A stretch of 64,000 nucleotides of DNA from Stegostoma tigrinum (Eukaryota). Below, one piece after another: positions 3,963-63,835 of the stretch. The position numbers were made by a program, and so were the translations under genes. The stretch lies in assembly GCF_030684315.1 (NCBI RefSeq), contig NC_081391.1, positions 14,113,342-14,177,341 of the forward strand, in the 5' to 3' direction. Position 1 is the stretch's first letter; every line of letters begins with the position of its first letter. The notes under the pieces are model-generated. The model made no database searches, had not been told where the DNA came from, and worked only from the letters and a program-made list of their open reading frames with translations.

Positions 3963-4444
3963 ATGCCCCAAGGACGTTATGTTTTTTTGTCTAGTTGATG
4001 TTGGTTCTAAATTGGTCACTTATGTTGTGAATAGAGTAAAACAAACTCCTCATCACAAGATGGCCTCCCAGATTAGTCAGAACTATCACCAGGATTGTGA
4101 AGCTGCTGTCAACAAGCAGATTCATGTGGAGCTCACTGCCTCCTATCTCTATCAGTCTTTGGTGAGTGCTGTCCCTAGGGGGTTAAAACTTGATCTATGT
4201 AGTTGCAGTAAATGGTTTCTCTTGAATTTAAATAACTGGACACTCTCTCTGGTCGACTGAGTTTTGTGGTCCTTTCCTAAATATTAATTCAGGATAAGGG
4301 CAATGTTACTATACCAATGGGGTTTGATAATGATGTACTCTGAAGCTGGGTCCCAGTTGGCATTTGGAGATATGTGGAGGTTTAAGTGTCCCTGGAGATA
4401 TTTGCCAGTTTTGATTGGCAGTAGATGTCATTTCCTCTAAGATT

Positions 4445-4580
4445 ACACAGCAGGCTGAGCAGGATGGCTGATGTTTTGGGGCTTGACCCTTCTGAAGGTG
4501 TGTCTAGGCCCAAAACATCAGCTTTCCTGCTCCTTTGCTTGGCCTGATGTGTTCATTCAGCTCTACATCATTGTATCTCA
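4445..4580. mobile_element. Penelope-like hairpin remnant, intron 1 of copy 1
   Basis: gctgatgttttgggg...cccaaaacatcagc inverted pair. Confidence 0.5.
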
Positions 4581-4900
4581 AGGGGTAGAGTGTGTTTGGA
4601 AGTTGTGTTCAAGTAACCTTGGTGAGTGCTGCAGGGGACCTGGTAGATAATGGACCCTGAAAGGAGGTGGTGAATGCAGTCCCCATCAAGTGGGCTGCTC
4701 TGTCCTGGATGGTGTCTGCTTCTTGCATGTGGCAGCTCCACCTCCACAGACACATGGAGAAGCTTCATCACACTCAGCTTTTTTCTCTTAGAAAGAAGAT
4801 GCTTCATGACAGATGGATGAAGCCTGTGTAAACTCCATTTGGGAGGTGGGTACAGCTTTCATTGGTGAGCTAGTTGATGGGTGTTAATTCCTGACCAGGG
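4581..4900 (-). mobile_element. Old LINE ORF2 3' relic in intron 1 (also at about 32030-32350, 39000-39310, 49470-49790)
   Basis: The minus strand reads [12 protein letters not shown], resembling the 'LD.IQ.RAARLI' segment of non-LTR ORF2; shared by several copies and so ancestral to the array. Confidence 0.45.
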
Positions 4901-7200
4901 TCCCAATTCCCTTGGGGAACATGTGTGCCAATTCTAAAATCCTTCCTATTCTCTCCTGCCACAGCTTGTCCCTACCCCAGTTAAACAGCCAAGAAATTTT
5001 GTTTGACTGCTTCTGCTTCAAGAAAGTAACTTCCCACCAGGTTTCCTCAACAACAAAACCCTTAGCTCCTGTTTCAAATATCAGAAGAATAGCCCTTCAT
5101 AAACCTCAAGGCATTGGATTGTGAATATCTCGGTTCGGAAGTGAGTCACATATGGGTGGACAAACAACAGAACGCTGCCTGCTGGAATAAGCCAAACTCT
5201 GGTGTCCAGCTTTGTGTTAACTAGTGATGTTAGATCAGCCATTATGTGGAGGTACATGTCGCATTGGCCTGCTCCCTCTCTCCCTCTCCCCCCTGCGTGC
5301 TCTTGTGGTCATGTGACCCTTGTTTTCTCCCCCCCGACCCCTTCTGGATGTGAGTGCACTAATTTTAGTGTGCTATAAACTATAGCTGCAACAATCCAGA
5401 GGCTGTTACTGGGTAGGTTTTCCTTTGCACTATCTTGTTGTCGCTTTCTCTCATTCGCCTCTACTATATCTTGTAGTAATAAAATATACCGTACACTATC
5501 TCCCTGGTTTTGAGGCTGCAGAAACCTTGCTTCCTCCTGGTTATATTGTTACAGCAGTGTCTAACATGCATTTCCATGCCAGCCCCAAAGGAGCAATAGT
5601 GTTGCAGCTCCGCTACTCAACTATAGCCTGCACTCCAGCTCCTGGTGCTTGTTTCAGCTGTTTTTTAGGCTCTAAATTTGTCCAATTCAAATGAAGGTTA
5701 GTGAGTGAAAACATGGCTGGATGCAAGAAGAGCTATAATGCTGTGCCAGACAGCTTGAGCAATTCACTGTTTTAAGCCAAACTTTTGCCAGTTTCCAATA
5801 GGAAATTGGGATTGTTGTTAGTTCCCAGTTGAAGGATCTGCTGGCCAGCTGGATATCAGCGAATTCTCAACCATGTTCACATACCACGCAGTTACCAGCT
5901 AACTGAGCAGTTAGCTTGCTGCAGAAGGCTGAACTAGAATTTGGAGTCAGTGCTGTGTTCAATGGGCTTTAACATGTTTTCTCCCTTCCAGATGACCTAC
6001 TTTGACTGGGATGATGTGGCCCTCCCCCACTTCTCCCAGTTCTTCAAAGATCAGTCCCAGGTGAAGCAGGAACCTGCAGAGAAGCTGCTGAAATTCCAGA
6101 ATCAGCGTGGAGGCAGAGGCTGAGTCCTCCTCCAGGATGTGAAGGTTGGAGTTGTGTGGGAGGGTTGCAGCTGTGGGGAAGAGAATGGCAGCTCTTGTGG
6201 TGCTGCTTCCTGTTGGGATGTAAAAATCCTCTTTTGGCCTGGCTTCCCTGTTTGATTTCTTTTGAAGGCAGTTTCTAAACTAGCCCTATTGTCCACCATG
6301 TCTATGCTGCCCACAAACCTCAAACTACATTAACACAATTTCCTTGCACTTAGTCCCCAGCCTACTATCTTCTGGCATGAAGAAGTTGTTGAGATTAGGC
6401 TTCAATGTTGCTGGAGTAACTTCCTCCACTGACCCCTCAGGTCATGCATCCCATACCTCTCCCACCCTCCATTTATCCTCCAATCTCCTCAAACCTGTGC
6501 CATCTGGTCTTCATGTCTGCCACAGGGACTGTCTATTGTCCATGCTCCCTGATCTTCCACACTTCCATGAGATAACCATCCCAGTCTATCCAACCTCCCT
6601 CTCATCATTGTTTTTTTTGTCATTTTTCTTCCCCCATCTTGGGCCAACATCCTGATGACCCTCACCTGTACCCCCTCCAGTGTCACCCTGTCCTTCTGAT
6701 TGTGGTTCTGGTCACCACACTACATTCCTTCTTTGGTCTGGCCAATGCTGCCATGTTTATGGCAAGACTCATCCTTTTTACTGATCCCCAACTCCTGGAG
6801 ACCAGCATCATGTCAGCCCCTTCCCCACTCTGTCTACCTTTGCTGAACCTTGAGGGATGGCCTTGGGCATTTGTTGCTTGTCCCTTTTATTGTAAGCACA
6901 TTGCTGCTCCCTTCAATGAATTAAACAGCAGTGATGTCTGATCATCCTGCTCAGACATGTATGAAGCCACTGGCACAGGTGAGACATAGATGCCTGGCCT
7001 GCAAGGTCCAGATTGGTACTCTACCTCAAGAGCCCTTGAGACTAAGGTGTGAATGTCCTGATCTAAATGACAAATGGGCACTGGTGCAAACAGTTTAACT
7101 TTGTGTGAAATAAATCCCTGTCCCCACAATGACTTCATGCTTCAGATCAAGGATAAATGGAGCAAAGTGAAGTCACCTACAAGTCATCAATGTGGGTTTT

Positions 7201-7445
7201 AGGGGTGGCACAGTTGCTCAGTGGTTAGCACTGCTGCCTCAGTGCCAGGGACACAGGTTTAGCTCTGGCCTCTGGTGACTGGTGCTGACATGATCAGTTT
7301 CTTCCTACAGTCCAAATATGGGCAGGCTGGGTGAAGTAGCTGTGGGGGAAATGCAGGGCTATGGGATCAGGTAAATCTGAGATCTGCTTCAGAAGGTTGA
7401 TTGCAGACTCAATGGGCTGAATGGCCTGCTCCCATGCTGCAGGAA
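7201..7445 (+). mobile_element. tRNA-derived SINE (HE1/V-SINE-like) at the end of intron 2, copy 1
   Basis: Head ggtggcacagttgctcagtggttagcactgctgcctc (A-box-like) and CR1-like tail atgggctgaatggcctg. Confidence 0.75.
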
Positions 7446-8331
7446 GTCTGATTCTGAGGCTTAACTGTTCTTCTTTTCCCCCCTCCAGAAGCCAGAGAGG
7501 GATGAGTAGGGTAACAGCCTGCAGGCAAGGCAAGTTCTCCTGGATCTGGAGAAGAACGTGAACCAGAGTTTGTTGGATCTACACCAACTCGCCACAGCCC
7601 AGACTGACCCTCATGTAAGCTTCACCTCTTCATTCTCACCACTGCCATGCCTCCTCAACTTCATTGGTTGATCTTTGTGGAGTGGAAAGTCACAGACGTA
7701 ACTCTGTCCAGATGCTACATTGTCATCATAATTATGTTATTAAGGTACAATGTTACAATTGCTCAACACCAAACTGAAATAGGAATTTGGCTGACAGTCT
7801 AGTGGGAATGCTGATGTGATTTTTGGCTGCTGAATTGGGGATTGTTGCACTATACAATACAACTTGGAGCTCTTTAAGAAGGTGAGATGGATCAGCTGAA
7901 ATGTTGTCGTCACTGGCATCAATTCTCCACCTGGTAGCTAGATTTTCAGGGCTGTCTAGAGCAAGTTATGGCTAAGGGTTTTTCAGTGGGAATTATGAAG
8001 TTGTCTTGGACAGTGTTAATGCACTCAGTTGTCATCTTCCTCTGTTGCAGCTGTGACTTCCTGGAGACTCTCTATTTGGATGAGGAGGTGGAGATCATCA
8101 AGCAACTGGGTGACTACATCACCAACCTGAAGCACCTGGGAGCCCCTGAGAATGGGATGGGAGAGTACCTGTTTGACAGGCTCTCCCTGGAGGACAGCAG
8201 TTAGTGTGGCCTGGAGCACTGTCTACTTGGTCTGAATGCATGCCCCTCTTCACCTTGGACAACCTGTCTCCTTCCAAGGAGAAGGGACTTGGAGCAAAGA
8301 ATGTAATGGCTGTAGCAGCCGAATGGGAATG

Positions 8332-11300: not shown

Positions 11301-11653
11301 ACATCAGTTGCCTGTTTTAGATGATCCAAAAGCACATTATTTCTGTTGCGGCACAGAAATAGGAAAATGTTCAGATCAACCAAATCGAGCCATTTTTCAA
11401 AGAGCTCCAACACCAACGTTCAAAAATTATGACGACTAATCCCTCAGAATAACAATCTGACAGAATTCTGCAAATCTGTGATGAGTGTGTCTTAACGCAC
11501 AACTTCAGATACAGACGTGAAGTTTTAGAGTATATTTTATTCTCATTTTCAGGGAGATGTCCTCCCAGAATTTGCACTTGTTCAGGAGGTCAAAGATCAT
11601 TTCAGCAATTTCATCATCAACCACTCATCAATTCTGATTGGTTTTTTGACCCG

Positions 11654-11775
11654 ATTCCCATCCTGCACTGATTGGATGTGGCAGCTGATCAATTGATTAA
11701 CAAGAGTGTTTGGCCATCACTGATGATCTCATTTCCTGCTTCATAAAATGAGTGTTGGCTCCTCGGGTATAAATA
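11654..11775 (+). promoter_or_regulatory. Core promoter, copy 2
   Basis: ATTGG at 11671-11675; second box changed to TTTGG; TATAAA at 11768-11773. Confidence 0.75.
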
Positions 11776-11861
11776 GAGTCCCAGGGCAGGGATGTTTATT
11801 GTTGTTCTTAACTTTGTTAATTTTGTGGTGCGGAAACTAAAGCAAGCTTTTCCTTTATATG

Positions 11862-14800
11862 ATGGCATCCCAGATCAGTCAGAACTATCACCAGGATTGT
11901 GAAGCTGCTGTCAACAAGCAGATTAATGTGGAGCTCACTGCCTCCTATCTCTATCAGTCTTTGGTGAGTGGTGTCTCTGTTGGGTGAAACATACTTCTGT
12001 TCTGTTGAAGTGAACTCTACTCCTTGGATGTAATTAAGTTGTCTATCTTATAGACTGAGTTTTGTGGCTCCTACCTCTTTCTCAATGCAGGATGAGTGTG
12101 ATGTTACTGTAACAATAGTTTGGTGTCCAATGTTACTCTAACTTGGGTCCCAGTTGGTTCTCAGTGAGATGTGGAGTGTTCTTGTAGTTACTTGCCTGTC
12201 CCATGATGGTGCTGTGACTGGTGGTAATTATAGCTTCCTGTGGCTGTTTGAAACTTGAGGGAACTAATTTAAAAATGAATTGGGACTAACCATTGTGGGA
12301 ATGGAAGCACCATCAGCTAGTCACTGCTCTTCTTTTCCTTCTTGTATCCTTGCTTGTATTTGAATTTTGTGGTGATCCCAACTTAACATCTCAAATAATC
12401 TTGAGAATCTTGATTTCCTATTGCAATCAGCTTAGAATAGGCTTGTTCTAGCCCTACAGAGCTGGGCTGAGAGGTGGCAAATGGAGTTTAATGCAGACAA
12501 GTGTGAGGTGATGCACTTTGGTAGGAGTAACCGGAAGGCAAAGCACGAGGCTAATGGTAAGATTCTTAGTAATGTAGATGAGCAGAGAGATCTCGGTGTC
12601 CACGTAAACAGGTCCTTGAAAGTTGCCATCCAGGTTGACAGGGTGGTTAAGAAGGCAGTGTTTTCTCTTTGATTAATAGAGGCATTGAGTTCTGGAACCA
12701 AGAGGTTATGGTGAAGCTGTACCAAACTCTGGTGTGGCTGCACTTGTAGTATTGTATACAGTTCTGGTCACTGCATTATAAGGATGTGGAAGCTTTGGCA
12801 AGAGTGCAGAGGAGGTTTACTAGGATGTTGCCTGGTATCGAGGGAAGCTCTTATGAGGGAAGACTGAGGGACTTGAGGCTGTCTTCATTGGTGAGAAGGT
12901 TGAGAGTTGACTTAATTGAAACATATAATATTCTGAGGGTTGGAAAGGGAAATCCTCTTTCTGCGGACGGTGAGCATGAGGGGGCATAGCTGTAAATTGA
13001 GGGATGATAGATATAGGACAGATGTCTGAGGTAGTTTCTTTACTCAGTAGTAAGGGAATGGAATGCTTTGCCTGTGACGGTAGTAGATTTGCCAACTTTA
13101 GGTACATTTAAGTCGTCATTGGACAAGCATATGGACGTACAGGGAATAGTCTAGGTTAGATGGGCTTGAGATCAGTATGACAAGTTGACACAACATCTAG
13201 GGCCTGTACTGTGCTGTTATGTTCTAGTTTCAGATTAAACTGGGTGAGGTTGTGACTGGTATCTGATCAAGCAGATCTCCATTTGAGATCTACTTTGCTT
13301 TTTTTCATACTCATGAGGTGGGTGTGGGCTGTCTGTATATGAAGTGTTGGAGCTTTTCCAAGGCACGGCACTGCCGTGGGGCTGAGAATGTGCGGAGGGT
13401 ACTGACCCAGTGAATATGCAAAAAATAGCTTATTCCTGTTGTATTTGGCCTGACTCTAACTAGCCCCTCTTTCCCCAGGTGGTTGGGTGCCTGTGCCCTT
13501 CCAAGGGGTAGAATGTGTTTAGAAGGTGTTAGAAGTAACCTTAGTGAGTGTTGCCGGGTGCTCTCTGGGCTTGTGCTTGTCAGCAGGAAGTCCTGTCATG
13601 ATGAGGATCAAGTCCCTGTCAGCCCCACTTTGGGAGGTGGCAACAGCTTTCATTGAGCCAGCAGTTCAGTTTTAATCGCTGACCCATGTTCCTAACACAA
13701 CTTGGAAGCATGTCCCAAGAGTAAAATCTCCACTATTCTACATCTTCTAACTGCCCATTTAAATGGGCAATGATAAATTGTGCTTGTGTTTGCATTTGAC
13801 AATTAAAGCAACTTTTTTCAGCAGGATTCCCAAGAATGTGTGTCTTAGTAGCTGCTTCCAATAGCAGACCTGGTAAACCTGAATACATTGAATTGTGAAC
13901 ATCCTGGTTTAGAAATCTACAGGACTTTGCCTGTTGGATTAAGTCAACAGTAGCATTTCCAGGTTACTGTTTTAATAAGTGATGTTGTCTAGAGAGTAGG
14001 TGATCTGCAGGTCACTGTCATATTTGTCATGTGATCAGTTTGTTTTGTCAATCATTGTTTCATGTGTAATGGTACAAGTTGCTAGCAGTCTCAGTACAGC
14101 TGTTTTAGTTGCAGCAGTAAACTGTATCTAGAACAATCCAAAGACTGTCCCGAGGCAGGCTTTCCTTGGCAGATTCTTGGTGCCCATGTCCTTCATTCAT
14201 CCCTTCCCCCTCACCCCAGCCACCCCACTACTGCAGCCCTTGTCAACCTAATACAGTGCATCCAATTGCATTGATCCTGACTAAGCAGAAAATGTGCTCC
14301 TTCCTAGCTGTTGGTTGCAGTGATGGGATCTGTTTTCTGGCCTTTGCCAAAGGAGCAATAGCGTGCCCTGCAGCTGTTCTATTGGTGCACATCCTGCATT
14401 CCAGCTTCTGGCATTTCTTGAAACCCTATTCAATCAGTAATTTATCCCATTTCTGGTGGAGGTTAATCAGTAAAAACATCAATTCACACTTGTTCTCACC
14501 CAATGCTGTGCCAGACCCACTGAGCAATTTGCCAGGAGTTTCAAACCAAAATAAAACACATGGTGTTTACAGCTTACCTGGAGGAAGCTGGGATTGTTTT
14601 GATTTTTCCAATTCAACAGGAACTGCTCAAAACTGGGTTCTGAATTGTTAATGCATCAGGTACTTAACAGCTTATTGTCAGTCTGATTTTTAGAATGCTC
14701 AAGTAGCCCTGGAGCTCTGAACTAAAATTGGCCCGTGACTTGTTAATGGGCTTTACCTTGATCTCCCTTCCAGATGTCCTACTTTGACCGGGATGATGTT

Positions 14801-17035
14801 GCCCTCCCCCATGTCTCCCGCTTCTTCAAACATCAGTCCCAGGAGAAGCGGGAACATGCAGAGAAGCTGCTGAAATTCCAGAATCAGCGTGGAGGCCGGG
14901 TCCTCCTCCAGGATGTGAAGGTTGGAGTTGGGTGGGGTGGGGGTTGGGATGGTAATGGCTGCTCTTGTGGTGTGGTTTCAAGTCAGTGACAAGGTTTTCA
15001 TTTGAGTCAAAACTTTGTTCGGCCTGTTTGATCTCCTTTTTGAAGCCAGTGTAGAAAGAAGCCCTTTGGCCCACCATGTCTTTGCTGACCCCCCCAAACA
15101 CTAAAGCACATTAATCCCATTTATCTTCCCTTGGTCCACAGGCCACTGTCCTGGCACTATGTACTTGTCCAGCTGGACCTTAAACTGATCTGGAGTAGCT
15201 GACTCCACCACCATCCAACCCTTTATGTGGTTCATCTCATATTTCTAACCTCCCCCTCGGAGGAGGGTGAAGAGAACGTTTCCTCCAATCCCCTCTAACC
15301 TGCTTACTCCACAAACCTGGTTTCTCTCTGGTCTTGGTGTCTGCCATGGGGAAGACATTCCATCAACTGGCCACTCTCTACTCTTCAATAGTTACATCAG
15401 GTCACTCCCTCAGCCGTTCCTGCTCCACAGAAAATCCCAGCCTATCTAACCTCCAATCAATGGATCTTGGGCAACAGCCTGGGCAACCTCACCAGCTTCC
15501 CCCTGCAGTGCCATCCTGTCCTTGTGACTGGTGAGGCCCAAGAGGGAATAATGTGGTGACTAGAAGAACAAACTGTGACAAGACTGGTCCCCTTCCTGTT
15601 CCACCACACCCAACTAATAGAGGTTGCTTGCCCTCTGTCACTGTTACACCCTGTTGACCTTGTCTGAACTTTGAGGGATCTATGGTTGTGGGCCTTTCTT
15701 AACTGTTAGCAGCACAACACACTTTGCAAACACCTCGCTGTCCCTTGGATGAATTAAATAGCCGTGATGTTTCTGATCATCCTGCTCAGGCATGTATGAA
15801 GCCACCAGCACAAGTGGTACTTGAACCTTGGCCTTGTCAGCCAGAGACAGGGGCACTACCACTGTACCATGACAGCATTTAGGATTCACTCGTGAATATC
15901 CTCGCAATTCCATCAGATGGACCCTGATGCAAATCTTGTCATTATCCCCCACAATGACCTGTTATTCACCTTCCTCCTTCAGATCAAGGACCGACAGGCA
16001 AGGTGAAAGCAATTCTGAAGGAACTGTTCTTCAGCTGTGCTCCAGGGCTGCCTCAGGGGCTAGCAGTGTTCTCAGTGCTAGGGACACAGGTTTTGATCTG
16101 GCCTCTGGTGAGGGACTGGTGTTTACATGTCCTCCCCATGTCTGCGTTGGTGTCCTCATAGTATAAGAGGATTGGCCATCTGAAATGCAGGGTTACAGGA
16201 ATAGAGGGGGAGTGGGATGAGCTGGGATGCATTTCAGAGCAGTTCTGCACTGATCGATGTTGTAGAGATTCTGAAGCTTCACTTTCCTTCTTTCCATCCT
16301 CAGAAGCCAGAGAGGGATGAGTGGGGTAACAGCCTCCAGGCAATGCAGGTTGCCCTGGATCTGGAGAAGAATGTGAACCAGAGTTTGCTGGATCTTCACC
16401 AACTTGCCACAGCCCAGACTGACCCTCATGTAAGCTTCACCACTTCATTCTCTTCACTGCTGGTCACTCAGGGCAACACCTTCAATGGTTGGTCTTTTGT
16501 GGATTAGAAGTTGCCTGCTGTCTCAGACAAGTACCATTTGGATCTCTTCAGATCTGTACCAATGCTTATAATCTGATCAGCTCAGCAATCAAGTAAAATG
16601 GGAATTTGGATTATAATCTAGTAGGAGTGATGAAGTGATATTGGCCACTGAATGCTCATCCAGGATTATTGCAGTGGAATGATCACTATCCATCATAATC
16701 CAACACAGCATCACTTAACAAACTGCAAGAGCAGTTGAAATACATGGTCCTCACTGGCATAGTCTCCAGGTGTTAGGTTTTCAGGGTAGTCTCGAGCTCA
16801 TATGGCTGAGTGTTTTGCAGTAGGAAATCTGAGGTTGTCTTGGATAGCATTAATGTAGCAAGTTGTCATATTCTTGCAGCTGTGTGACTTCCTGGAGACT
16901 CACTATTTGGATGAGGAGGTGGAGATCATCAAGCAACTCGGGGACTACATCACCAACCTGAAGCGCCTGGGAGCCCCTGAGAATGGGATGGTAGAGTACC
17001 TGTTTGACAGGCTCTCGCTGGAGGACAGCAGTTAG
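11862..17035 (+). CDS. Ferritin subunit (L/M-lineage-like, 176 aa), copy 2; exons 11862-11963, 14774-14920, 16304-16429, 16880-17035
   Basis: Spliced frame is open: [180 protein letters not shown] introns lie at the conserved vertebrate ferritin positions. AATAAA at 17165-17170. Confidence 0.93.
12455..13228 (+). mobile_element. CR1 LINE 3' fragment in intron 1 of copy 2
   Basis: [16 protein letters not shown]...[11 protein letters not shown] fragments with a tgttat/gttct tail. Confidence 0.9.
16055..16270 (+). mobile_element. Decayed SINE at the same intron 2 position, copy 2
   Basis: cagtgctagggacacaggttttgatctggcctctggtga matches the copy 1 element. Confidence 0.55.
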
Positions 17036-17164
17036 TGTGGCCTGGAGTACTGTCTGCTTGGTCTGAATGCATTCCCCACTTCACCCTGGACAACCTGTCT
17101 CCTTCCAAGGAGAAGGGACTTTTGTAGCAAAGAATGTAATGGCTGTACCAGCTAAATGGAAATG

Positions 17165-17170
17165 AATAAA
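17165..17170 (+). terminator. Polyadenylation signal, copy 2
   Basis: AATAAA at the conserved position. Confidence 0.8.
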
Positions 17171-20158: not shown

Positions 20159-20280
20159 ATTCCCATCCTGCACTGATTGGATGTGGCAGCTGATCAATTG
20201 ATTTACAAGAGTGTTTGGCCATCACTGATGATCTCATTTCCTGCTTCATAAAATGAGTGTTGGCTCCTGGAGTATAAATA
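20159..20280 (+). promoter_or_regulatory. Core promoter, copy 3
   Basis: Same variant block as copy 2; TATAAA at 20273-20278. Confidence 0.75.
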
Positions 20281-20366
20281 GAGTCCCACGGGAGGGATGT
20301 TTACTGTTGCTCTTAACTTTGTCATTTTTCTGGGGAGGAACATAAAGCAAGTGTTTCCTTTATGAG

Positions 20367-23300
20367 ATGGCCTCCCAGATCAGTCAGAACTATCACCAGG
20401 ATTGTGAAGCTGCTGTCAACAAGCAGATTAATGTGGAGCTCACTGCCTCCTATCTCTATCAGTCTTTGGTGAGTGGAGTCTCTGTTGGGTGAAACATACT
20501 TCTGTTCTGTTGAAGTGAACTCTTCCCCTTGGATGTAATTAAGTTGTCTATCTTATAGACTGAGTTTTGTGGCTCCTACCTCTTTCTCAATGCAGGATGA
20601 GTGTGATGTTATTATAACAATAGTTTGGTGCCTAATGTTACTCTAACTTGGGTCCCAGTTGGTTGTCAGTGAGATGTGGAGGGTGGAGTGTTCTTGTAGT
20701 TACTTGCCTGTCCCATGATGGTGCTGTGACTGGTGGTAATTATAGCTTCCTGTGGCTGTTTGAAACTTGAGGGAACTAATTTAAAAATGAATTGGGACTC
20801 ACCATTGTGGGAATGGAAGCACCATCAGCTAGTCACTGCTTTTCTTTTCCCTCTTGTATCCTTGTTTCTATTTGAATTTTGTGGGGATCTGAAGTAAACC
20901 TGCCAATTGTGACTGAGAATCTTGATTTCCTATTGCAATCAGCTTAGAATAGGCTTGTTCTAGCCCTACAGAGCTGGGCCGAGAGGTGGCAAATGGAGTT
21001 TAATGCAGACAAGTGTGAGGTGATGCTCTTTGGTAGGAGTAACCGGAAGGCAAAGTACAGGGCTAATGGTAAGATTCTTGGTAGTGTAGATGAGCAGAGA
21101 GATCTGTGTCGATAGGTAGACACGGAATGTTGAAAGTTGCCACCCAGGTTGACAGGGCAATTAAGGCAGTGTTTTGTCTTTTATTAAGAGGATTGAGTTC
21201 TGGAACCAAGAGGTTATGGTGAAGCTGTACAAAACTCTGGTGCATACAGTTCTGGTCACTGCATTATAAGGATGTGAAGCTTTGGAAAGGGTGTAGAGGA
21301 GATCTGCTAGGATGTTGCCTGGTATGGAGGGAAGATCTTATGAGGAAAGGCTGAGGGGCTTGAGGCTCTCTTCATTAGAGAGAAGAAGGTTGAGAGGTGA
21401 CTTAATTGAAACAATAAAATAATCAGAGGGCTGGATAGAGAGAGCCTTTTTCCTAGATGGTGATGGTGAGCATGAGGTGGGGTAGCTTTAAATTGAGGGC
21501 TGATAAATATAGGACAGATGTCAGAGGTAGTTTCTTTACTCAGTAAGGGAATGCAATGCTTTGCCTGTGACAGTAGTAGATTTGCCCACTTTAGGTACAC
21601 TTAAGTCATCATTGGATAAGCAAATGGGCATACATGGAATAGTGTAGGTTAGATGGGCTTGAGATCAGTATGACAAGTCGGCACAACATCAAGGGCTGAA
21701 GGGCCTGCACTTTGCTGTTATGTTCTATGTTCAGATTAAACTGGGTGAGGTTGTGACTCTTATCTGATTAAGCAGATCTCCTTTTGAGATCTACCTTGCT
21801 TCTCTTCATACTCATGAGGTGGGTGCGGGCTGTCTGTATGTCAAGTGTTGGAGCTTTTCAAAGGCACAGCACTGCCATGGGGCTGAGAATGTACTGACCC
21901 AGTGACTCTGGTAAAAAGTTTATGCCTGTTGTATTTGGCCTGATTCTAAACTAACTGGACCCTCTTTCCCCAGGTGGGGTGCTTGTGCCCTTCCAAGGGG
22001 TAGAAGGTGTTTATGTAACCTTAGTGTTTGTTGCAGGGTGCTCTCTGGGCTTGTCCCTGTCAGCAGGAAGTCCCCTCCTGATGAGGATCAAGCCCCTGTC
22101 AGCCCCACTTCGGGAGGGGGAACAGCTTTCATTGAGCCAGCAGTTGGGTTTTAATCACTGACCCATTGTCCCAACACACCTTGTAAGCATGTGCCAGGAA
22201 TGAAATCCTTACTATTCTACATCTTCTAACTGCACATTTAAATCGCAAAGATAAATTGTGCTTGTGTTTGCATTTGAGAATTGAAGCAACTTTTTTCAGC
22301 AGGATTTGTAAGAATGTGCTTGTTACTGGCTGCTTCCAATAGCAGACCTGCTAAACCTCAATACATTGAATTGTGAACATCCTGGTTTAGAAATCTACAG
22401 GACTTTGCCTGTTGGATTAAGTCAACAGTGGTTTTTCCAGGTTAATGAGGGATCTTGTCTGGAGAGTAGTTGATCTGCAGATCACTGTCATATTTGTCAT
22501 GTGATCAGTTTCTTTTGTCAGTCTTTCTTTCATGTGTAATGGTACAAGTTGCTAGCAGTCTGAGTCAGTGCAGCTGTTTTAGATGCAGCAACAAACTGTT
22601 GCAGTAACAATCCAAAGGCTGTCCTTCGGCAGGTTTTCCTTGGCAGATTCTTGGAGCTAACGTCCTTCATTCATCTCCTCATGCGCCCCCCCCCAGCCAC
22701 CCCAATACTGCAGTTCTTGTCAAACTAATAGATACAGTGCATCCAATTGCATTGATCCTGACTAAGCAGAAAATGTGCTCCTTCCTAGCTGTTAATTGCA
22801 GTGTCTAGGATCTGTTTTCTGGTCTTTGCCAAAGCAGCAATACAGTGCCCTGCAGCTGTTCTATTGGTGTACATCCTGCACTCCAGCCCCTGGCATTTCT
22901 TGAAACCCTATTCAATCAAAGATTTATCCCATTTCTGGTGGAGGTTAATCAGTAAAAACATCAATTCACACTTGTTCTCACCAAATGCTGTGCCAGACCC
23001 TCCTGGGCAATTTGCCAGGAGTTTCAAACCAAATTAAAACACATGGTATTTACAACTTACTGGAGGAAGCTGGGATTGTTTTGATTTTTCCAATTCAACA
23101 GCAATTGCTCAAAACTGGGTTCTGAATTGTTAATGCATCAGGTACTTAACAGCTTATTGTCAGTTTGATTTTGAGAATGCTCAAGTAGCCCTGTAGTTCT
23201 GAACTGAAATTGGCCCATGACTTGTTAATGGACTTTACCTTGTTCTCCCTTCCAGATGTCCTACTTTGACCGGGACGATGTTGCCCTTCCCCATTTTTCC

Positions 23301-25527
23301 CAGTTCTTCAAACATCAGTCTCAGGAGAAGCGGGAACATGCAGAGAAGCTGCTGAAATTCCAGAATCAGCGTGGAGGCGGAGTCTTCCTCCAGGATGTGA
23401 AGGTTGGAGTTGGGTGGGGTGGGGAATGGGATGGTAATGGCTGCTCTTATGGTGTGGTTTCAAGTCAGTGACAAGGTTTTCATTTGAGTCAAAACTTTGT
23501 CCAGCCTGTTTGATCTCCTTTTTGAAGCCAGTGTGGAAAGAAGCCCTTTGGCCCACCATGTCTATGCTGACCCCACAAACACTAACAACATTAATCCCAC
23601 TTACCTGCCCTTGGTCCACAGGCCACTGTCCTGGCACTAAGTACTTGTCCAGCTGGACCCTAAACTGATCTTGAGTCGCAGTCTCCACCACCATCCAACC
23701 CTTTATGTGGTTCATCTCATATTTCAAACAGCCCCTCAGAGGGGTGGGGGTGGGGTGAAGTTTCCTCCAATCCCCTCTAACCTGCTTACTCCACAAACCT
23801 GGTTTCTCTCCTGTCTTGGTGTATGCCATGGGGAAGACATTCCATCAACTGGCCACTCTCTATTCTTCAATTACATCAGGTCACTCCCTCAGCCGTTCCT
23901 GCTCCACAGAAAATCCCAGCCTATCTAACCTCCAATCAATGGATCTTGGGCAACAGCCTGGGGAACCTCACCAGCTTCCCCCTGCAGTGCCATCCTGTCC
24001 TTGTGACTGGTGAGGCCAAAGAGGAATAATGTGGTGACCAGAAAAACAAACTGAGGAGACTGGTCCCCTTCCTGTTCCACCACACCCAACTAATAGAGGT
24101 TGCTTGCCCTCTGTCACTGTTACACCCTGTTGACCTTGTCTGAACTTTGAGGGATCTATGGTTTTGGGCCTTTCTTAACTGTTAGCAGCACAACACACTT
24201 TGCAAACACCTCGCTGTCCCTTTGATGAATTAAATAGCTGTGATGTTTCTGATCATCCTGCTCAGGCATGTATGAAGCCACCAGCACAAGTGGTACTTGA
24301 ACCTTGGCCTTGTCAGCCAGAGACAGGGGCACTACCACTGTACCATGACAGCATTTAGGATTCACTTGTGAATATCCTCGCAATTCCATCAGATGGACCC
24401 TGATGCAAATCTTGTCATTATCCCCCACAATGACCTGTTATTCAACTTCCTCCTTCAGATCAAGGACCGACAGGCAAGGTGAAAGCAATTCTGAAGGAAC
24501 TGTTCTTCAGCTGTGCTCCAGGGCTGCCTCAGGGGCTAGCAGTGTTCTCAGTGCTAGGGACACAGGTCTGGATCTGGCCTCTGGTGAGGGACTGGTGTTT
24601 ACATGTCCTCCCCTTGTCTGCGTTGGTGTCCTCATAGGATAAGAGGATTGGCCATCTGAAATGCAGGGTTACAGGAATAGGGTGGGAGAAGGACGAGTTG
24701 GGATCCTCTTCAGAGCAGTTACAGACTGATCCACGTTGTAGAGATTCTGAAGCTTAACTGTCCTTCTTTTCCCTCCTCCAGAAGCCAGAGAGGGATGAGT
24801 GGGGTAACAGCCTGCAGGCAATGCAGGTTGCCCTGGATCTGGAGAAGAATGTGAACCAGAGTTTGTTGGATCTACACCAAGTCGCCACAGCCCAGACTGA
24901 CCCTCACGTAAGCTTCACCTCCTCATTGACTTCACTGCTAGGCCCTCAGGGCAACACCTTCATTGGTTGGTCTTTTGTGGATTAGAAATTCAGTTAGACT
25001 TTGTTTTTGTGCAGATGACATGGATCACTTCAGATCCATAGTGATTACAAAATCATTGCTGAGCAGTTGACTCCAAGTATGTATTTTAACTTGTAAACCT
25101 GTGGGGAGGACTGAGGCGATATTGGTGACTGAATTCTCATTCAGGGCCACTGCAGTGGAATGACTTTTATCCATCACAAGTCAACTCTGCTCCAGTAAAT
25201 AAACAGCAAGATGAAGCAGCTAAAAAGCAGTTGTCCTCTTTGCACAATTTCTCCAGGCGTTGGCTCTAGTCATCCCTGACAATCTCCCTCCATATGCATG
25301 TTTTTCAGTGGGAATTCTGAAGTTGTCTTGGATAGTGTTGATGTACCAAGTGTCATATTCCTCTGTTGCAGCTGTGTGACTTCCTGGAGACCCACTATTT
25401 GGATGAGGAGGTGAGGATCATCAAGCAACTTGGGGACTACATCACCAACCTGAAGCGCCTGGGAGCCCCTGAGAATGGGATGGGAGAGTACCTGTTTGAC
25501 AGGCTCTCCCTGGAGGACAGCAGTTAG
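20367..25527 (+). CDS. Ferritin subunit, copy 3; exons 20367-20468, 23256-23402, 24782-24907, 25372-25527
   Basis: Open spliced frame of 176 aa with GT-AG introns; R79G variant; AATAAA at 25654-25659. Confidence 0.92.
20967..21731 (+). mobile_element. CR1 LINE 3' fragment in intron 1 of copy 3 (same insertion as in copy 2)
   Basis: Same flanks (gttctagccc ... cagattaaac) as 12455-13228, so it was inherited through the duplication. Confidence 0.9.
24530..24745 (+). mobile_element. Decayed SINE at the same intron 2 position, copy 3
   Basis: Duplicate of 16055-16270. Confidence 0.55.
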
Positions 25528-25653
25528 TGTGGCCTGGAGTACTGTCTGCTTGTCTGAATGCATTCCCCACTTCACCCTGGCCAATCTGTCTCTCTCCAGG
25601 GAGAAAGGACTTTGAGCAAAGAATGTAATGGCTGTACCAGCCGAATGGAAATG

Positions 25654-25659
25654 AATAAA
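25654..25659 (+). terminator. Polyadenylation signal, copy 3
   Basis: AATAAA at the conserved position. Confidence 0.8.
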
Positions 25660-31244: not shown

Positions 31245-34200
31245 ATGGTCTCCCAGATCAGTCAGAACTATCACCAGGATTGTGAAGCTGCTGTCAACAA
31301 GCAGATTAATGTGGAGCTCACTGCCTCCTATCTCTATCAGTCTTTGGTGAGTGCTGTCTCTCGGGGTTAAACATATAAATCTGTTCTGTTGAAGTAAATT
31401 CTTTGCCTGGCCTCTAGTGAAGCTGACAATCTAGTAGATTGAGGTTTTGTGGCTCCTACCTAAATATCAGTTCAGGATAGAGGTGGTGTTACTGTCACGA
31501 TGGTGTAGGATACTGATGTATGTTAACTCAGGTCCCAGTTGGCCTTCAGTGGTATCTGGAGGGTAAAAGCCTCTTGCTTTTGTTTTCTTTCTGACACAAG
31601 TTTCCTGACTTCATTTGCCTGATCTCTGTGGTGGTCCTAAACAAACATGCTGATTTTTTTTAACACTGACAATAACAATAACTTCCCTGTTGCAGTGGCC
31701 CTTGTTAGTCTGAACAAACCTGAGGCTAGTCTGTGACTGGTATCTATTTTATGTAGATCTCCTTCATTGAGGCTGACTTGGCTTTACTTGTATTTATTGA
31801 AGATGTGGGTGTGGCCTATCCCGTCCCTACTGAGAGTAGATCTGCCGTGTGTGAGAAATGTTGGATCCCCTCTCTGCCCCCTCTCCTCCCCACCCCACCC
31901 CACACTGGGGCTGCAGGAATGTGCTGAGGCTATTAGCCCAGTGACATTGAAGAAATGGAGGTTGTTCCCATATCATTTAGCTTGACCTAAAACAAAATGT
32001 CCCCTCTATCCTGGTGGTGATGTGACTGTGCCCTTCCAAGGAGTAGAATGTGCTTGGAAGGTCTGTGTTGAAGTAACCTTGGTGAGTGCTGCAGGGGACC
32101 TGGTAGGTAATGGACCCTGAAAGGAGGTGGTGAATGCAGTCCCCATGAAGTGGGCTGCCCTGTCCTGGATGGTGTCTGCTTCTTGCATGTTGTAGCTCCC
32201 CTTCTACAGACACATGGGGAATATTCATCTCCCTCTGGGCTTGTGCCTATTGGAAGGAAGTTATCTTGTAATGAGGACTAAGTCCCTATAAGCCTCACTT
32301 GGGAGGTGGGACCGCTTTATTGGTGAGCCAGTTGTTGGGGTTTAATCACTGTGTCCCACCTCTACTGGCACATGCTTCCCAAGGATAAAATCCCGACTAT
32401 CTTCTGCCACAACTTGTAACTACCCACTGAAACCACAGATATTTGCTTGCCTGAGTGTGGTTTTTGGATTTGAGGATTCAAGTAACTTTTCAGGAGTCCT
32501 TCCCCAGAATATAACTCTTAGCTGATGCTTCCAATAGCGAGCATTAGCTCTTAAACCCTTACATCGAATTGTGAACGTGACAGTTTAGATATGAGTCACA
32601 TGGGCTGAAAACCTACAGGATTTTTTGCCTGTTTGGGTAAAGTCAGGGCAAGTGTTTTTCCAGGTTACTGTTTTCACTAGTGACGTTATCTACAGGCCAC
32701 TAATAGTTGACATTTGATCATTTGTTTTGCAATTTGTTTCAGTCATGTGACTTGGTGCAAGCTTTTGACAGCCTGAGTTTGCACTATTTAGGCAGAGCAA
32801 TAACCCACTGCTGCAACGATCCAAAGGCTGTTACTGGGCAGGCTTTCCTCGGCATTATCTTAGTGCCAAACTCCAAACTGGAGACAGCACACCTTTGTAG
32901 AGTTCATGTGTACACTTACATCACAATCTCGTTGATCCTGGGTTTGCAGAAAACATGCTCCCTACTAGTCGTTGACTACAGCAGGGTTTCAACATCTTTT
33001 TTTCCAGTTTTCCCCAAAGGCAAAACATAGTACCTTGCGTCTTGTAGTTGAGAACTGGAATGGGGAGTGAGCCAGTGATGTCTGATGTAATTTTAACTTG
33101 ATCTTCCAGATGTCCTACTTTGACTGGGACGATGTTGCCCTCCCCCATTTCTCCCAGTTCATCAAACATCAGTCCCAGGAGAAGCAGGAACATGCAGAGA
33201 AGCTACTGAAATTCCAGAATCAGCGTGGAGGCCGGGTCCTCCTCCAGGATGTGAAGGTTAGAGTTGGCAATATATGGCTGCTCTTGTCATGTGGCTTCAA
33301 GTCATCAGTGGCAGGATGTTTGCCTCCTCTCAGGAGAGTGAAGAGTTCTTTCAGTTTGGTTTCTAAGTTTCATCTCCTCGAAGTCATGCAGTGTATGGGA
33401 AAAGCCACTTGCCCCCCCATAAACAGAACTACACTCATCTGACTTGCTTGCACTTGGTCCACAGATGACTATACCCTGGCATGAAGTACATGTCCAGATA
33501 CTGCTGGAGTTGCTATCTCCACTGCCATCTCTTCCCCTCCCCACCCAGACCACGGTTCAACTCGTATCTTGATCAGCCTCCTTTTTGGGAAAGTGGTTTC
33601 CTATAATTGCCCCTCTATAACCTGCTTACTCCTCAAACCTGTGCTCTCTGGTCTGTCTTCCTCATGGCCCACATTCTCCCCATCTCCTGTCCCAACTTCC
33701 CTCTGCTAACTGCCTCAGCCTGTTTGTCCTCCAGGGAAAACCCCAGCCAATCCAACACCTGAATGGATTTTCCACCTGAGGGACCTTCCTGCTCTTCTGA
33801 TAGTGGTCCTGTTCACAACACCATTGCTTCTTTGACCTGGCCAAAATTTGAGTGGGAGAAGAAATGGCTGCCCTTGGGGTGTGGCTTCCATTCATCAGTA
33901 ACAGGATGATGACATCCTGAAGGCAGGCGCAGGAAGTGAAGTGCTTCTGTCTTTCACCCATCATTCTAACTACATCTTGTGCAAGAACTATACTGTCTAA
34001 ATTCTGCGTGATAATCTCAAACACGCTCCTTTGTTCCTGGCTTCGGTGAAATCAAACGTACACTCGGGTCGAAAGTTCAAGGTCTGCTGCTAATAACGTG
34101 GCTGGACTCTTTTAGTTTTAAAGCAGTTCTGTTTGTACCAAGTACAATCAGACAAGATCTGTGTGTCTGTGTGCTCCTACCATTAGACATGACGACAATG

Positions 34201-35035
34201 ATTGCTTTCCCTTTACATGAAGGGTCAAGGTTCAATTGTTGGACAAGGGTGCTGCATGTAATGGGGAACAGTGAGGTTTGTCCTGGAGCTTAGCTGTCCT
34301 TCTTTCCATCCTCAGAAGCCAGAGAGGGATGAGTGGAGTAACAGCCTGCAGGCAATGCAGGTTGCCCTGGATCTGGAGAAGAATGTGAACCAGAGTTTGC
34401 TGGATCTACACCAACTCGCCACTGCCCAGACTGACCCTCATGTAAGCTTCACCTCCTCCTCATTGTCATCACTGCTACACCCTCAGGGCAACACTTCATT
34501 GATTGGTCTTTGTGGTTTGGAAATTCACTGCTGTAACACTTTGCCTGGATGACATTGGACCTGTAGTGATCATGCTGAGGATCTGTGTTCACAGTTGTTA
34601 AAATGGGAATTTGGATCAGTATCTGGAAGGAGTGTTGAACTGATACTGGCCACTGAATTCTCGTTTAGTATCATTGTCCGTCACAATCCACCTCCAATCC
34701 ATTTCACAAACAGCAAGACGGAGCAGCTGAAATCCTATTGTCCTCACTGCCAAATATTCTCCAGGTGCTGGCTTGATTTTTTTCAGGGCTGTTGAGAGTG
34801 GGTATGGTGAAATGTTTTGCAGTGGGAATTCTGAATTTGTCTTTAATAGTGATCACAATTTCTCATTCTGCTGTTGCAGCTGTGTGACTTCCTGGAGACC
34901 CACGATTTGGATGAGGAGGTGGAGATCATCAAGCAACTTGGGGACGACATCACCAACCTGAAGCGCCTGGGAGCCCCTGAGAATGGGATGGGAGAGTACC
35001 TGTTTGACAGGCTCTCCCTGGAGGACAGCAGTTAG
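31245..35035 (+). CDS. Ferritin subunit, copy 4 (open frame, possibly decaying); exons 31245-31346, 33110-33256, 34316-34441, 34880-35035
   Basis: Open frame, but with R43W, F55I, Y137D and Asp at 151, and a 1.26-kb CR1 between TATA and ATG; AATAAA at 35162-35167. Confidence 0.75.
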
Positions 35036-37989: not shown

Positions 37990-40900
37990 ATGGCCTCCCA
38001 AATCAGTCAGAACTATCACCAGGATTGTGAAGCTGTTGTCAACAAGCAGATTAATGTGGAGCTCACTGCCTCCTATCTCTATCAGTCTTTGGTGAGTGCT
38101 GTCCCTGTGGTGTTGAAGTTAAATCTGTTATGGTTAAGTCAACAGTTTTTCTTGTTTGTAACTAACTTGGAACTACTGTAGATAGTGTTTTATATTTCCC
38201 TTCTATTTAAACACCAGGAGAAATCTAATGCTATTAGAAAAATGCGGTATGACACTGATATACAGTAACTAGGCCCCTGTTGACTTTCAGTGACTGTCTG
38301 GTGGGTGAAGTGCTTTGAGAAATACATCTTGTAATTCACTGTCAGGATTGTGACTGGCAGTAACTGTCACTATCTCTGAAGATTATCATAACTTGACAGT
38401 ATGTTAGAAAGAAGATAACGGAGTGTGGGGCTGGATGACCACAGCAGGACAAGCAGCATCTCAGGAGCATAAAAGCTGATGTTTTGTGCCTGGACCCTTC
38501 ATGCTGCTTGGCCTGCTGTGTTCATCCTGCCTGATGCTTTGTTTTCTTGGATTCTCCAGCTTTTGCTGTTCCCATTATTTGAGTCTTTTAGAAAGAAGCT
38601 GGGATAACCATTAGTTCATTAGCCTCCTGTTGTAATGTGTCCTGGTGTATCTGTTTTGTCTTGTGATGCATGTGAACAAACCAGGGTTATATTTCCTGTT
38701 GGAGAAAGGTGTCATAGTGACTGTCCAGAATAACCAAATCTGATTTGCCTCAGCCTTCAGGGTTGGGCTGTGACTCCCTACCTGTTTAAATAGGTTTCCA
38801 GTGAGGCCTGTTGGGCTTTTTGCTCTCCATGAGGTGGGTGTGACCCATTCTCTCTCAACCTACAGACAATTGATCTGCTGTAGTGTGATATATTGGAGAC
38901 TCCTGGGTCTGCAGGAATGTGTTGAGCCAGTGAAGCAAGGCTTTTCCCATACCACCTCTCCTGGTCTGAAACAAGCCCCCTTTCACCAGCTGGTGGTGTG
39001 CCTGTGCCCTTCCAAGGGGGAGAATATGTTTGGAAGGTGAGAGCTGCAGCGGACCTAGTAGATAATGGACCCTGAAAGGAGGTGGTGAATGCAGTCCCCA
39101 TGAAGTGGGTTGCTCTGTCCTGGATGGTGTCTGCTTCTTGCATGTTGTAGCTCCACTTCTCCAGACACATGGAGAATATTCATCACTCACTGGGCTTGTG
39201 CCTGTTGGAAGGAAGTCGTTTCCAATGACATGAGGATCAAGTCCCTGTAAGCCCACTTTGTGAGATGGGAACAGCTTTTCCTGCTGAACTAGGTGGGTTT
39301 TAATCACTGGCCAGTGTGCCTACTCAACAAGAATTGTGCTCATATAAAATCCTCACTGTTCTTCACATGTCACATCATGTAACAACCCAGTTAAATCACA
39401 CTGTAATCCACCAAGGCAAATCGTCAAGAGCAACTTCTCACCAGGTTTCTTCCCTCAGAACAATCCTCATCTGCTTTATGAAGCAGCCTAAAGTGTTCAC
39501 TGTTATTCCAGCTTGTTGTTCAAGTGTGAATGTCAGATTAGAATGAGTGCAAGGGGTGGGTCAGGTCTAGAATTTGACCTGTACAAATGGGTCAAATCAG
39601 GTTTTCCAGCTTCATGTTAACGAGTGACATGATCTGCAGAACAATAGTTCATCTCAAGGTCTCTCTGACCTTGCTTCAGTTTGTTTTAAGCAGTGATGTT
39701 TGTATGCAAGCTTCTGAATGTGAGTGTGCTACATAAATGGGTGTAGTAGCCTATTGCAGTAACAACCGAATGGCTGTCACTGGGCAGGATTTCCTTTGCA
39801 GAATCTTGGTTCCACTTTTGCTCTTTCTCCCCCCATAATGCCAACAGCATCTCTTGCAGAGCTATCATCCAATCCGATTGATCTCCAGGTTGTAGAAGAC
39901 TCGCTCCCTCCTGGCTATATTATTACAGCAGTGCCTAGTGTCTGTATGTTACTTTAGCCCCAAAGGAGAAATGTAGTGTCGTGCAGCTACCCCACCCTGA
40001 GTCCATCCTGCACATCAACTCCTGGCCATTCCTCCAATTCTGTGACATCCATCAGTGGAAACATGAATTCAGCTTTTCTCAGCATACGCTGTGCCAGACC
40101 ACCCCCCACCCTGAACAATTTGATAGTGCTTTCAAACCCAAACAGGGTATCTGCAGGAAGCTGGGTTTGTCTAGATTGACCCAGTTAACAGATCTGCCGG
40201 CAAATTGAACCACACTAGGTTCACAGGCCAATTTTGTGTAGCCGCACTTTGACAGCTGGCCGAACCTTCAGTTTGCTTTTGAAGGATAAACCAGGTCTGC
40301 AGTTCTGAACTATATTCAGGCCCAGTGGTACATTTTAATGGGCTTTAACTTGTTCCCTCTCCCTTCCAGATGTCCTACTTTGACCGGGATGATGTTGCCC
40401 TCCCTCGTTTCTCCCGGTTCTTCAAAGATCAGTCCCAGCAGAAGCGGGAACATGCAGAGAAGCTGCTGAAATTCCAGAATCAGCGTGGAGGCAGAGTCCT
40501 CCTCCAGGATGTGAAGGTTGGAGTTGGGAAGAGATGGTTGGGTAGGGTGAGGTTTCAAGTCAATGACCAGCATGTCTCACACTGAAAAGTGAGACATGCT
40601 ACCATTTTGGCTTCCCAGTTTCTCCTGAAATACCAGAAATCCCACAAACAAGCCCTTTGGCCCACCATGTCTATGCTGACCCAACAAACACCCAACCACA
40701 TTAATCCCATCAACCTGCACTTGGACTGCAGCCCACGATGAGCTGGCATTAAGTAGTTGTCCAGATGTTGCTGGAGTAGATGCCTTCACTCGGGTGTTGC
40801 ATTTCACAAACCTACTTCTGTGTTTTAGGAGGAGTTGGAGGTGGTGGGTTTCCTCCGACCTGGAGCCTCACCTGCACCCCCCTCCAGTGTTTATCCTGTC

Positions 40901-63733: not shown

Positions 63734-63835
63734 ATGGCCTCCCAAATCAGTCAGAACTATCACCAGGATTGTGAAGCTGCTGTCAACAAGCAGATTAATG
63801 TGGAGCTCACTGCCTCCTATCTCTATCAGTCTTTG
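63734..63835 (+). CDS. Ferritin copy 8, exon 1 only (gene runs past the window end)
   Basis: [34 protein letters not shown] followed by donor gtgagt. Confidence 0.9.

What the first reader, a model, noticed from the sequence alone, without database searches (positions are those of the whole stretch)
11862..17035. Many mammalian FTL-type residues beyond the active site: deep orthology or convergence
Seen: AAVN in helix A, exon 1 ending in [34 protein letters not shown] and GEYLF.RL.L, with Leu rather than His at the fourfold-channel position 173. Established (from recalled sequences): these match human FTL rather than FTH1 (AAIN, SM, EERE, NDPH, NEQV, KMG, DKHT). The 176-aa length and YHQDCEA / EHAEKL / [10 protein letters not shown] are H/M-like. 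The threefold-channel residues H118, C130, D131 and E134 are intact. The L-type nucleation patch is only partial (H/D57, Q60, E61, E64). Inference: either an L-chain lineage already existed in the gnathostome ancestor, or sharks evolved the same L signature independently.
Basis: partly seen in the sequence, partly recalled or inferred. Interest (0 to 1): 0.7.

Follow-up and report, generated by a model that had tools for sequence, protein, structure and literature searches.

The report
Shark ferritin resembling mammalian light chain
A tandem run of shark iron-storage (ferritin) genes has lost key iron-oxidising residues in the same way as the mammalian light chain; part of the match clearly arose separately in sharks, while a shared ancient origin of the rest is unlikely but not excluded.

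Summary
The gene is real: copy 2 of a tandem array of four-exon ferritin genes (7 full copies, 2 with stops), zebra-shark type (copies 3 and 5 equal Stegostoma proteins). The listed residues are present, except that this copy reads V, not G, before EYLF. Most are not L-specific. Where mammalian L and H differ, this chain has the L residue at 13 columns and the H residue at 30; tetrapod M chains score 13, invertebrates 12. E141 and R172 are confined to carpet sharks (20/20 and 19/20, against 0/25 in other sharks' K62 chains), so they are convergent. Only K62, L173 and partly L37 could be inherited with FTL. Six of seven free trees join this subfamily to a shark sister array with an intact active site; one joins it to L. 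No AU test rejected L orthology (p 0.11-0.62), FTH1 affinity or a control, so trees are not decisive. FTH1 lies on another contig; flanking synteny was untestable. Best reading: a shark-specific, ferroxidase-impaired, IRE-less, probably ovarian chain of the M/L locus that converged on L (0.62); strict FTL orthology 0.2.

The parts
11768..11773 (+). TATA box 94 nt before the ATG; implies a short 5' UTR, in which no IRE loop was found
   Evidence: TATAAA 94-107 nt upstream in 5 of 8 exon-1 copies; no CAG(T/A)GH between TATA and ATG; 0 Rfam hits in the window
11862..11963 (+). Copy 2 exon 1 (34 codons): E27 and Y34 kept, T29, L37
   Evidence: loose ends matching its 3' end in run X5
14774..14920 (+). 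Copy 2 exon 2 (49 codons): H57, Q60, E61, K62 (codon AAG), E64, H65
   Evidence: 100% identical to P0010
16304..16429 (+). Copy 2 exon 3 (42 codons): E107, H118
   Evidence: joint 14918>16302 GT..AG
16880..17035 (+). Copy 2 exon 4 (51 codons + stop): C130, D131, E134, E141, V166, R172, L173
   Evidence: joint 16429>16880 GT..AG
17165..17170 (+). AATAAA polyadenylation signal, 130 nt after the stop
   Evidence: 127-130 nt after the stop in 7 of 7 full copies
4060..8204 (+). Copy 1, pseudogene: stops in exons 2 and 3, altered exon-4 acceptor
20367..25527 (+). Copy 3, intact; identical to Stegostoma protein P0437; 90% identical to the copy-2 unit over 7.1 kb
31245..35035 (+). Copy 4, intact frame, K62/E141
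37990..42400 (+). Copy 5, intact; identical to Stegostoma protein P0427
48646..53403 (+). Copy 6, pseudogene: two stops in exon 2
56800..61118 (+). Copy 7, intact frame, K62/E141
63734..63835 (+). Exon 1 of copy 8; the array runs off the window end

Best explanation
The gene belongs to a shark-specific ferritin subfamily ('shK') that arose by tandem duplication in the M/L ferritin locus, as sister of a second shark array with an intact active site ('shE'), and converged stepwise on the L chain. K62 and L173 were fixed before hexanchiform and galeomorph sharks split; E141, R172 and LLK came later, in carpet sharks only (distribution shown). Each is one base change from the M-type codon (inferred from the codons). 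How it works (inferred): loss of the bridging ligand E62 and of Q141 cripples the di-iron ferroxidase centre, while the threefold entry channel stays intact. The chain therefore most likely co-assembles with ferroxidase-active shE or M chains into 24-mer cages, as a structural, weakly nucleating L-like partner. With many copies and no IRE, output is set by transcription and dosage, probably for bulk iron storage in ovary or oocytes.
For: E141 in 20/20 carpet-shark shK rows and 0/25 other shK rows; R172 19/20 and 0/25; carpet sharks are nested in shK (97/90, 99/83); E141 needs 2 changes even on the tree forced to join shK and L. shK+shE is in 6 of 7 free trees: 925, 933, 942 and 819 of 1000 bootstraps and both LG trees without trait columns. 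The one tree joining shK and L owes it to the trait columns 173 (+8.1 lnL), 62 (+3.4) and 37 (+1.2). K62 recurs elsewhere: a marsupial M-like gene with K62 and L173 nested in tetrapod M (99/96, 97/88), one shE copy (P0048) and a marmot H-like protein. L173 needs 7 changes on the 55-row tree. No K62 in 29 batoid, 21 sawshark, 5 coelacanth, 31 ray-finned or 2 chimaera rows held (2 and 3 batoid and sawshark rows have a gap there). Only 3 of 6 L-stem characters are in the window chain. shK, shE and the single M-like gene share one contig length per species (Stegostoma 26,869,179), FTH1 another (64,382,378). pN/pS 0.12-0.52 in 15 of 15 pairs. Spliced forms and exon-only cover in run X5 (30,612 of 714,730 contigs laid). 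Ovary expression of the Greenland-shark ferritin cluster (bioRxiv 10.1101/2024.09.09.611499, one passage).
Against: No AU test rejected shK+L: p 0.528 with the held tree 0.47 lnL higher than the free one, 0.621, 0.508 and 0.109 without trait columns, 0.425 with lungfish L added. Parsimony length 1146 (shK+L) against 1147 (shK+shE). SH-aLRT for shK+shE is only 60-84. The control forcing the marsupial gene into L was not rejected either (p 0.303), so that independent origin is also unproven. Gene conversion in the array could make shK and shE look like sisters. Lungfish L keeps E27 and H60 and has L37 and K62, like basal shK. The absence counts rest on capped hit lists; holocephalans are 2 rows and no cyclostome was identified. 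The published ferroxidase-null mutant is E62K plus H65G (PMC6929972, PMC4029007; passages), and the shark keeps H65. The tissue and kind of run X5 are not on record.
Confidence: 0.62

Rival explanations
1. Strict deep orthology: shK is the shark orthologue of lungfish/tetrapod L. K62, L37 and perhaps L173 were fixed in a gnathostome ancestor, the gene was lost in chimaeras, batoids, ray-finned fishes and coelacanth, and E141 and R172 were added in parallel later.
For: Not rejected by any of 5 AU tests (twice, 47); best LG tree on all columns; a true L chain exists already in lungfish, next to an M gene (XP_043939310 and XP_043939307), with E27, L37 and K62 as in shK; same kind of locus as L (M and L share a contig in crocodile, monitor lizard and two frogs).
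Against: 5, 11, 25 and 120 of 1000 bootstraps; support comes from the trait columns themselves; needs about four independent losses; S16, G19 and L144 of the L stem are absent; K62 is one transition from E and recurs.
Confidence: 0.2
2. The whole shark array (shK plus shE) is co-orthologous to L as a gene lineage, the single shark M-like gene being the M orthologue; ferroxidase loss then happened separately in shK and in L.
For: shK+shE+L is a split in 3 of 7 free trees; V20, T125, G166 and L173 are common in shK, shE and L; AU p 0.429.
Against: Support 66/27 at best; 72, 25 and 37 of 1000 bootstraps; the shared residues are labile (4-12 changes).
Confidence: 0.13
3. The array derives from FTH1 (as the public 'heavy subunit-like' names suggest) and all L-like residues are convergent.
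For: AU p 0.296, 0.244 and 0.241, not rejected; in some trees shK+shE sits near H and shark M (92/92, 94/89); 30 H-like columns.
Against: 0 of 1000 bootstraps in four sets (twice); each of three sharks checked has FTH1 on a different contig from the array (Stegostoma, Scyliorhinus canicula, S. torazame); best solved-structure matches are M chains (284 against 268 bits); no IRE.
Confidence: 0.05

Closest known systems
Amphibian and teleost ferritin M (middle) subunit, e.g. bullfrog M, PDB 1MFR
   Same: Best solved-structure match (282-284 bits); 176 aa; [28 protein letters not shown]; same locus type.
   Different: M keeps E62 and Q141 and mostly H173; this chain has K62, E141, L173.
Ferritin L clade (mammalian FTL, reptile L, amphibian 'light chain, oocyte isoform', lungfish XP_043939310)
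   Same: K62, E141, L37, R172/L173; intact threefold channel; neighbour of an M-type gene.
   Different: Keeps E27 and H65; has H/D57 and Q60 rather than the E57/E60 patch; lacks S16, G19, L144; only 61-65% identical; no IRE found; multi-copy.
Shark ferritin clusters reported in Greenland and great white shark (bioRxiv 10.1101/2024.09.09.611499)
   Same: Very large tandem ferritin clusters, conserved between sharks; ovary-specific expression reported for the largest.
   Different: The passage read labels copies FTL or FTH1 by similarity and gives no active-site classes or tree; supplements could not be seen.
'Lower subunit' ferritins (bullfrog L, PDB 1RCD/1RCI; Callorhinchus NP_001279207; salmon NP_001134896; lungfish XP_043938097)
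   Same: Another vertebrate ferritin line with a degraded ferroxidase centre, present in a cartilaginous fish.
   Different: Different changes (Q107, E62 kept, S/C141); never joined L or shK in 1000 bootstraps.

Membership tests
Animal maxi-ferritin | Ferritin domain PF00210 over the whole chain | tested here: met
   P0010 (1 residue from copy 2): 123.8 bits, cut-off 24.5
Animal maxi-ferritin | Four exons, three introns | tested here: met
   joints; standard structure per PMC4117605 (passage)
Ferritin L clade (FTL) | K62 | tested here: met
   7 of 7 full copies; 45 of 45 shK rows
Ferritin L clade (FTL) | E141 inherited from the clade's stem | tested here: not met
   present here but 0/25 in non-carpet-shark shK; 2 origins on either topology
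Ferritin L clade (FTL) | Other stem characters S16, G19, L37, L144 | tested here: not met
   only L37 present
Ferritin L clade (FTL) | Loss of E27 and H65 (amniote L) | tested here: not met
   both kept; lungfish L also keeps E27, so this does not define the root of the clade
Ferritin L clade (FTL) | Acidic nucleation patch E57/E60/E61/E64 | tested here: not met
   H or D57, Q60, E61, E64
Ferritin L clade (FTL) | One clade with lungfish and tetrapod L | tested here: inconclusive
   1 of 7 free trees; 5-120/1000 bootstraps; AU p 0.11-0.62; control not rejected
Ferritin L clade (FTL) | BAX/GYS1 neighbourhood | not testable with these tools
   ferritin copies span 4060-63835 of the window and no flanking gene was identified; no genome held; 18 proteins scanned for fused neighbour domains gave none
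Ferritin L clade (FTL) | Iron-responsive element in the 5' UTR (recalled for FTL) | tested here: not met
Ferritin L clade (FTL) | No ferroxidase activity | not testable with these tools
   needs an assay; the published null is E62K+H65G
Ferritin M subunit | Complete ferroxidase centre | tested here: not met
   K62, E141
Ferritin M/L locus | Same chromosome as the species' M-type gene | tested here: met
   equal contig lengths for shK, shE and M-like genes in Stegostoma, Rhincodon, Carcharodon, Cetorhinus, Heptranchias, S. canicula; a proxy, not gene order
FTH1 | Placement in the H clade | tested here: inconclusive
   0/1000 in four bootstrap sets but AU p 0.24-0.30
FTH1 | FTH1 locus | tested here: not met
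   Stegostoma FTH1 (P0487) on a 64,382,378-bp contig, array on 26,869,179

The most novel reading that the evidence does not exclude
The shark K62 subfamily is the true orthologue of FTL: a ferroxidase-impaired L chain existed in the ancestor of jawed vertebrates as an IRE-less ovarian iron-store subunit, survives in sharks, lungfish and tetrapods, was lost in chimaeras, rays, ray-finned fishes and coelacanth, and later gained E141 and R172 in parallel in carpet sharks and in the lungfish-tetrapod line. Teleost M would then be a paralogue, not the orthologue, of FTL.
Probability: 0.2. Interest if true: 0.65.

Novelty: new variant of a known kind. Interest (0 to 1): 0.43.

Why it matters
The usual picture is that fishes have H and M chains and that M is the orthologue of mammalian L (PMC4117605). 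The data here show a true L chain beside M in lungfish, a shark subfamily carrying L-type lesions, and an older 'lower subunit' line. A catalytically impaired ferritin subunit therefore seems to have arisen several times in vertebrates. The shark series (K62 alone in most sharks, K62 plus E141 in carpet sharks) gives natural intermediates for testing what these substitutions do, and it suggests that reported shark 'FTH1/FTL expansions' need splitting into active and impaired classes before claims about iron handling or longevity. It is a refinement of a known family, not a new system.

Tried and rejected
Own-genome search for synteny: no genome held. Pfam scan of 18 proteins, mostly long gene models, for fused neighbour genes: only ferritin; the FCH and PAD hits lie inside ferritin repeats and were rejected as noise. 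AU tests: eight hypotheses or repeats over four data sets rejected nothing, including the control; LG search noise was up to about 5 lnL, since two constrained searches scored below a free tree that satisfied the same constraint. The quick tree left the backbone open. Idea that teleost or chimaera 'lower subunit' is the FTL orthologue: 0/1000 bootstraps, long branches, not AU-tested. Sequencing-run search: no RNA holder listed on record; X1-X3 are another organism with small shares and were not used as evidence. Rfam: 0 hits. Earlier findings of this scan: none by sequence or words. Literature: ten searches found no paper on active-site classes or phylogeny of shark ferritins; a second Greenland-shark preprint (10.1101/2025.02.19.638963) has no ferritin mention in its main text; PMC5568229 mentions ferritin once, for liver; PMC13207978 gave only general statements. 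Structure and complex prediction were not run: they could not separate the hypotheses.
Full report
Numbering. Residue numbers are human-H numbers, equal to window residue + 3 (offset read). shK = shark chains with K62; shE = shark array chains with E62; shM = single M-like shark gene. These labels are mine.

1. The observation. Motif scans and exon mapping show seven complete four-exon ferritin genes and exon 1 of an eighth, all on the + strand. Copy 2 (11862-17035) encodes 176 aa with GT..AG introns. Copies 1 and 6 carry stops. Copies 3 and 5 are identical to Stegostoma tigrinum proteins and copy 2 differs from P0010 at one residue, so this is zebra shark. Pairwise pN/pS among six copies is 0.12-0.52 (15 of 15 pairs below 1). 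A TATA box lies 94 nt before the ATG, AATAAA 130 nt after the stop, and no IRE was found. In run X5, whose kind and tissue are not on record, contigs cover exons at summed depths of millions against under 4,000 in introns, show both tested joints, and number 30,612 of 714,730 records. This shows spliced forms of the family; it does not measure expression or single out this copy.

2. Are the residues an L signature? Mostly not. Bullfrog M shares AAVN, DEWG, DPHLCDFLE, RLG and GMGEYLFD. In an 84-row alignment, at columns where mammalian L and H majorities differ, the carpet-shark chain has the L residue at 13 and the H residue at 30. Tetrapod M scores 13/39, invertebrates 12/37, reptile L 28/23, amphibian L 23/26. 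Five columns are informative: L37, K62, E141, R172, L173.

3. Distribution of those five. K62 and L173 are in all 45 shK rows, from Heptranchias, Heterodontus, lamniforms, carcharhiniforms and carpet sharks. E141 is in 20/20 carpet-shark rows and 0/25 others; R172 in 19/20 and 0/25; L37 in 20/20 and 13 of 23 filled (one long and one bacterially named row were left out of the non-carpet set). Carpet sharks are nested within shK, and E141 needs two origins even when shK is forced to join L. E141 and R172 are therefore convergent whatever the deep tree. L173 also occurs in 9/12 shE, 3/11 tetrapod M and 2/9 fish M rows. K62 also occurs in a marsupial M-like gene, one shE copy and a marmot H-like protein. 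No K62 was seen among 29 batoid, 21 sawshark, 5 coelacanth, 31 ray-finned and 2 chimaera rows; these come from capped lists (120 of 533, 120 of 260, 120 of 4278, 150 of 4932) and cluster look-ups.

4. Trees. shK (100/99), shE, L and H are each well supported; the backbone is not. shK+shE appears in 6 of 7 free trees, which are not independent: 925/1000 (84 rows), 933 and 942 (55 rows with lungfish L, with and without seven ferroxidase columns), 819 (54 rows with 'lower subunit' chains), and two LG+G4 trees without trait columns. The LG+G4 tree on all columns joins shK and L, by 1.04 lnL, driven by columns 173, 62 and 37. Against my reading: the tree holding shK and L together scored 0.47 lnL above the 84-row free tree, and no AU test rejected it (p 0.528, 0.621, 0.508, 0.109, 0.425). 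shK+H was in 0/1000 bootstraps in four sets yet not rejected (p 0.24-0.30). A control forcing the marsupial gene into L was not rejected either (p 0.303). So 176 columns lack the power to decide. Rows were hand-picked subsets (84, 56, 55, 54) of 545-575 proteins held; no cyclostome was identified.

5. Locus. No flanking gene was identified in the window and no genome is held, so the BAX/GYS1 test was not possible. As a proxy, shK, shE and shM share one contig length within each of six sharks, while FTH1 lies on another contig in the three sharks checked. L and M-like genes likewise share a contig in crocodile, monitor lizard, two frogs and lungfish. The array is thus most likely the shark M/L locus.

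6. How it works. Shown: E27, Y34, E61, H65 and E107 are kept; E62 is K and Q141 is E; the threefold channel is intact; position 173 is Leu; the nucleation patch is partial. From papers: the centre uses E27, E62, H65, E107, Y34 and Q141, and E62K plus H65G abolishes activity (PMC6929972, PMC4029007; passages). Inferred: two of these ligands are changed, so oxidation is much reduced, though H65 remains and no assay is known to me. Inferred: the chain works in mixed cages with active shE or M chains from the same locus. Inferred from the missing IRE, the copy number and the ovary-specific expression reported for the Greenland-shark cluster (one passage): bulk, transcriptionally driven iron storage in ovary or oocyte.

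7. What is known. Teleost M and tetrapod L were described as one orthologous group (PMC4117605; passages; its reference 18 was not read). Large shark ferritin clusters are reported (bioRxiv 10.1101/2024.09.09.611499; one passage; supplements not seen and they may bear on novelty). Ten searches found nothing on active-site classes of shark ferritins, but most subscription journals are outside the library. It works like an L chain (inferred); membership of the L clade fails several defining features and is inconclusive by tree.

8. Verdict. A real, moderately interesting variant. The headline of many FTL residues is overstated. Convergence within the M/L locus 0.62; strict FTL orthology 0.20; whole array co-orthologous to L 0.13; FTH1 origin 0.05. 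Interest 0.43.

Noticed in passing
proteins P0506 / P0257 (Protopterus XP_043939310 and an unnamed relative): Lungfish has a true L-clade ferritin (100/99 with tetrapod L) next to an M-type gene, keeping E27 and H60; this puts L before tetrapods and makes teleost M at best a co-orthologue of FTL.
   Followed up: partly
proteins P0531, P0517, P0312, P0317: A 'lower subunit' line with Q107 occurs in chimaera, teleosts and lungfish; the chimaera protein's best solved match is bullfrog L ferritin. It may be an old ferroxidase-poor gnathostome paralogue distinct from FTL.
   Followed up: partly
proteins P0296, P0507-P0516: Marsupial genes named 'heavy chain A-like' or 'FTHL17' fall in the tetrapod M clade and carry K62 and L173, suggesting M survives in marsupials in an impaired form.
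   Followed up: partly
protein P0089 (bird): A bird ferritin of the M clade has an intact active site but an L-like C-terminus (R172, L173).
   Followed up: no
proteins P0183, P0532-P0545 (stingrays, manta): Batoid shE-type copies have R172/L173 with E62 intact and lie on several different contigs in Hypanus and Hemitrygon, unlike the single shark cluster.
   Followed up: no
proteins P0036, P0458, P0461, P0550; P0197, P0208: Shark-type ferritins filed under Aeromonas and Salmonella, and reptile-type L chains filed under panda and a nematode: probable contamination or mislabels.
   Followed up: no
window 12440-13230 (intron 1 of copy 2): Looks by eye like a LINE 3' fragment (recalled likeness, not tested).
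   Followed up: no
window 28291-29475 and 57688-58857: A 1.2-kb element, 86.5% identical, in opposite orientations: probably a mobile element.
   Followed up: no
window 33104-37401 and 59202-63500; 10182-17203 and 18681-25692: Recent unit duplications (96% over 4.3 kb; 90% over 7.1 kb) with mixed upstream types, consistent with unequal crossing-over and birth-and-death turnover.
   Followed up: partly
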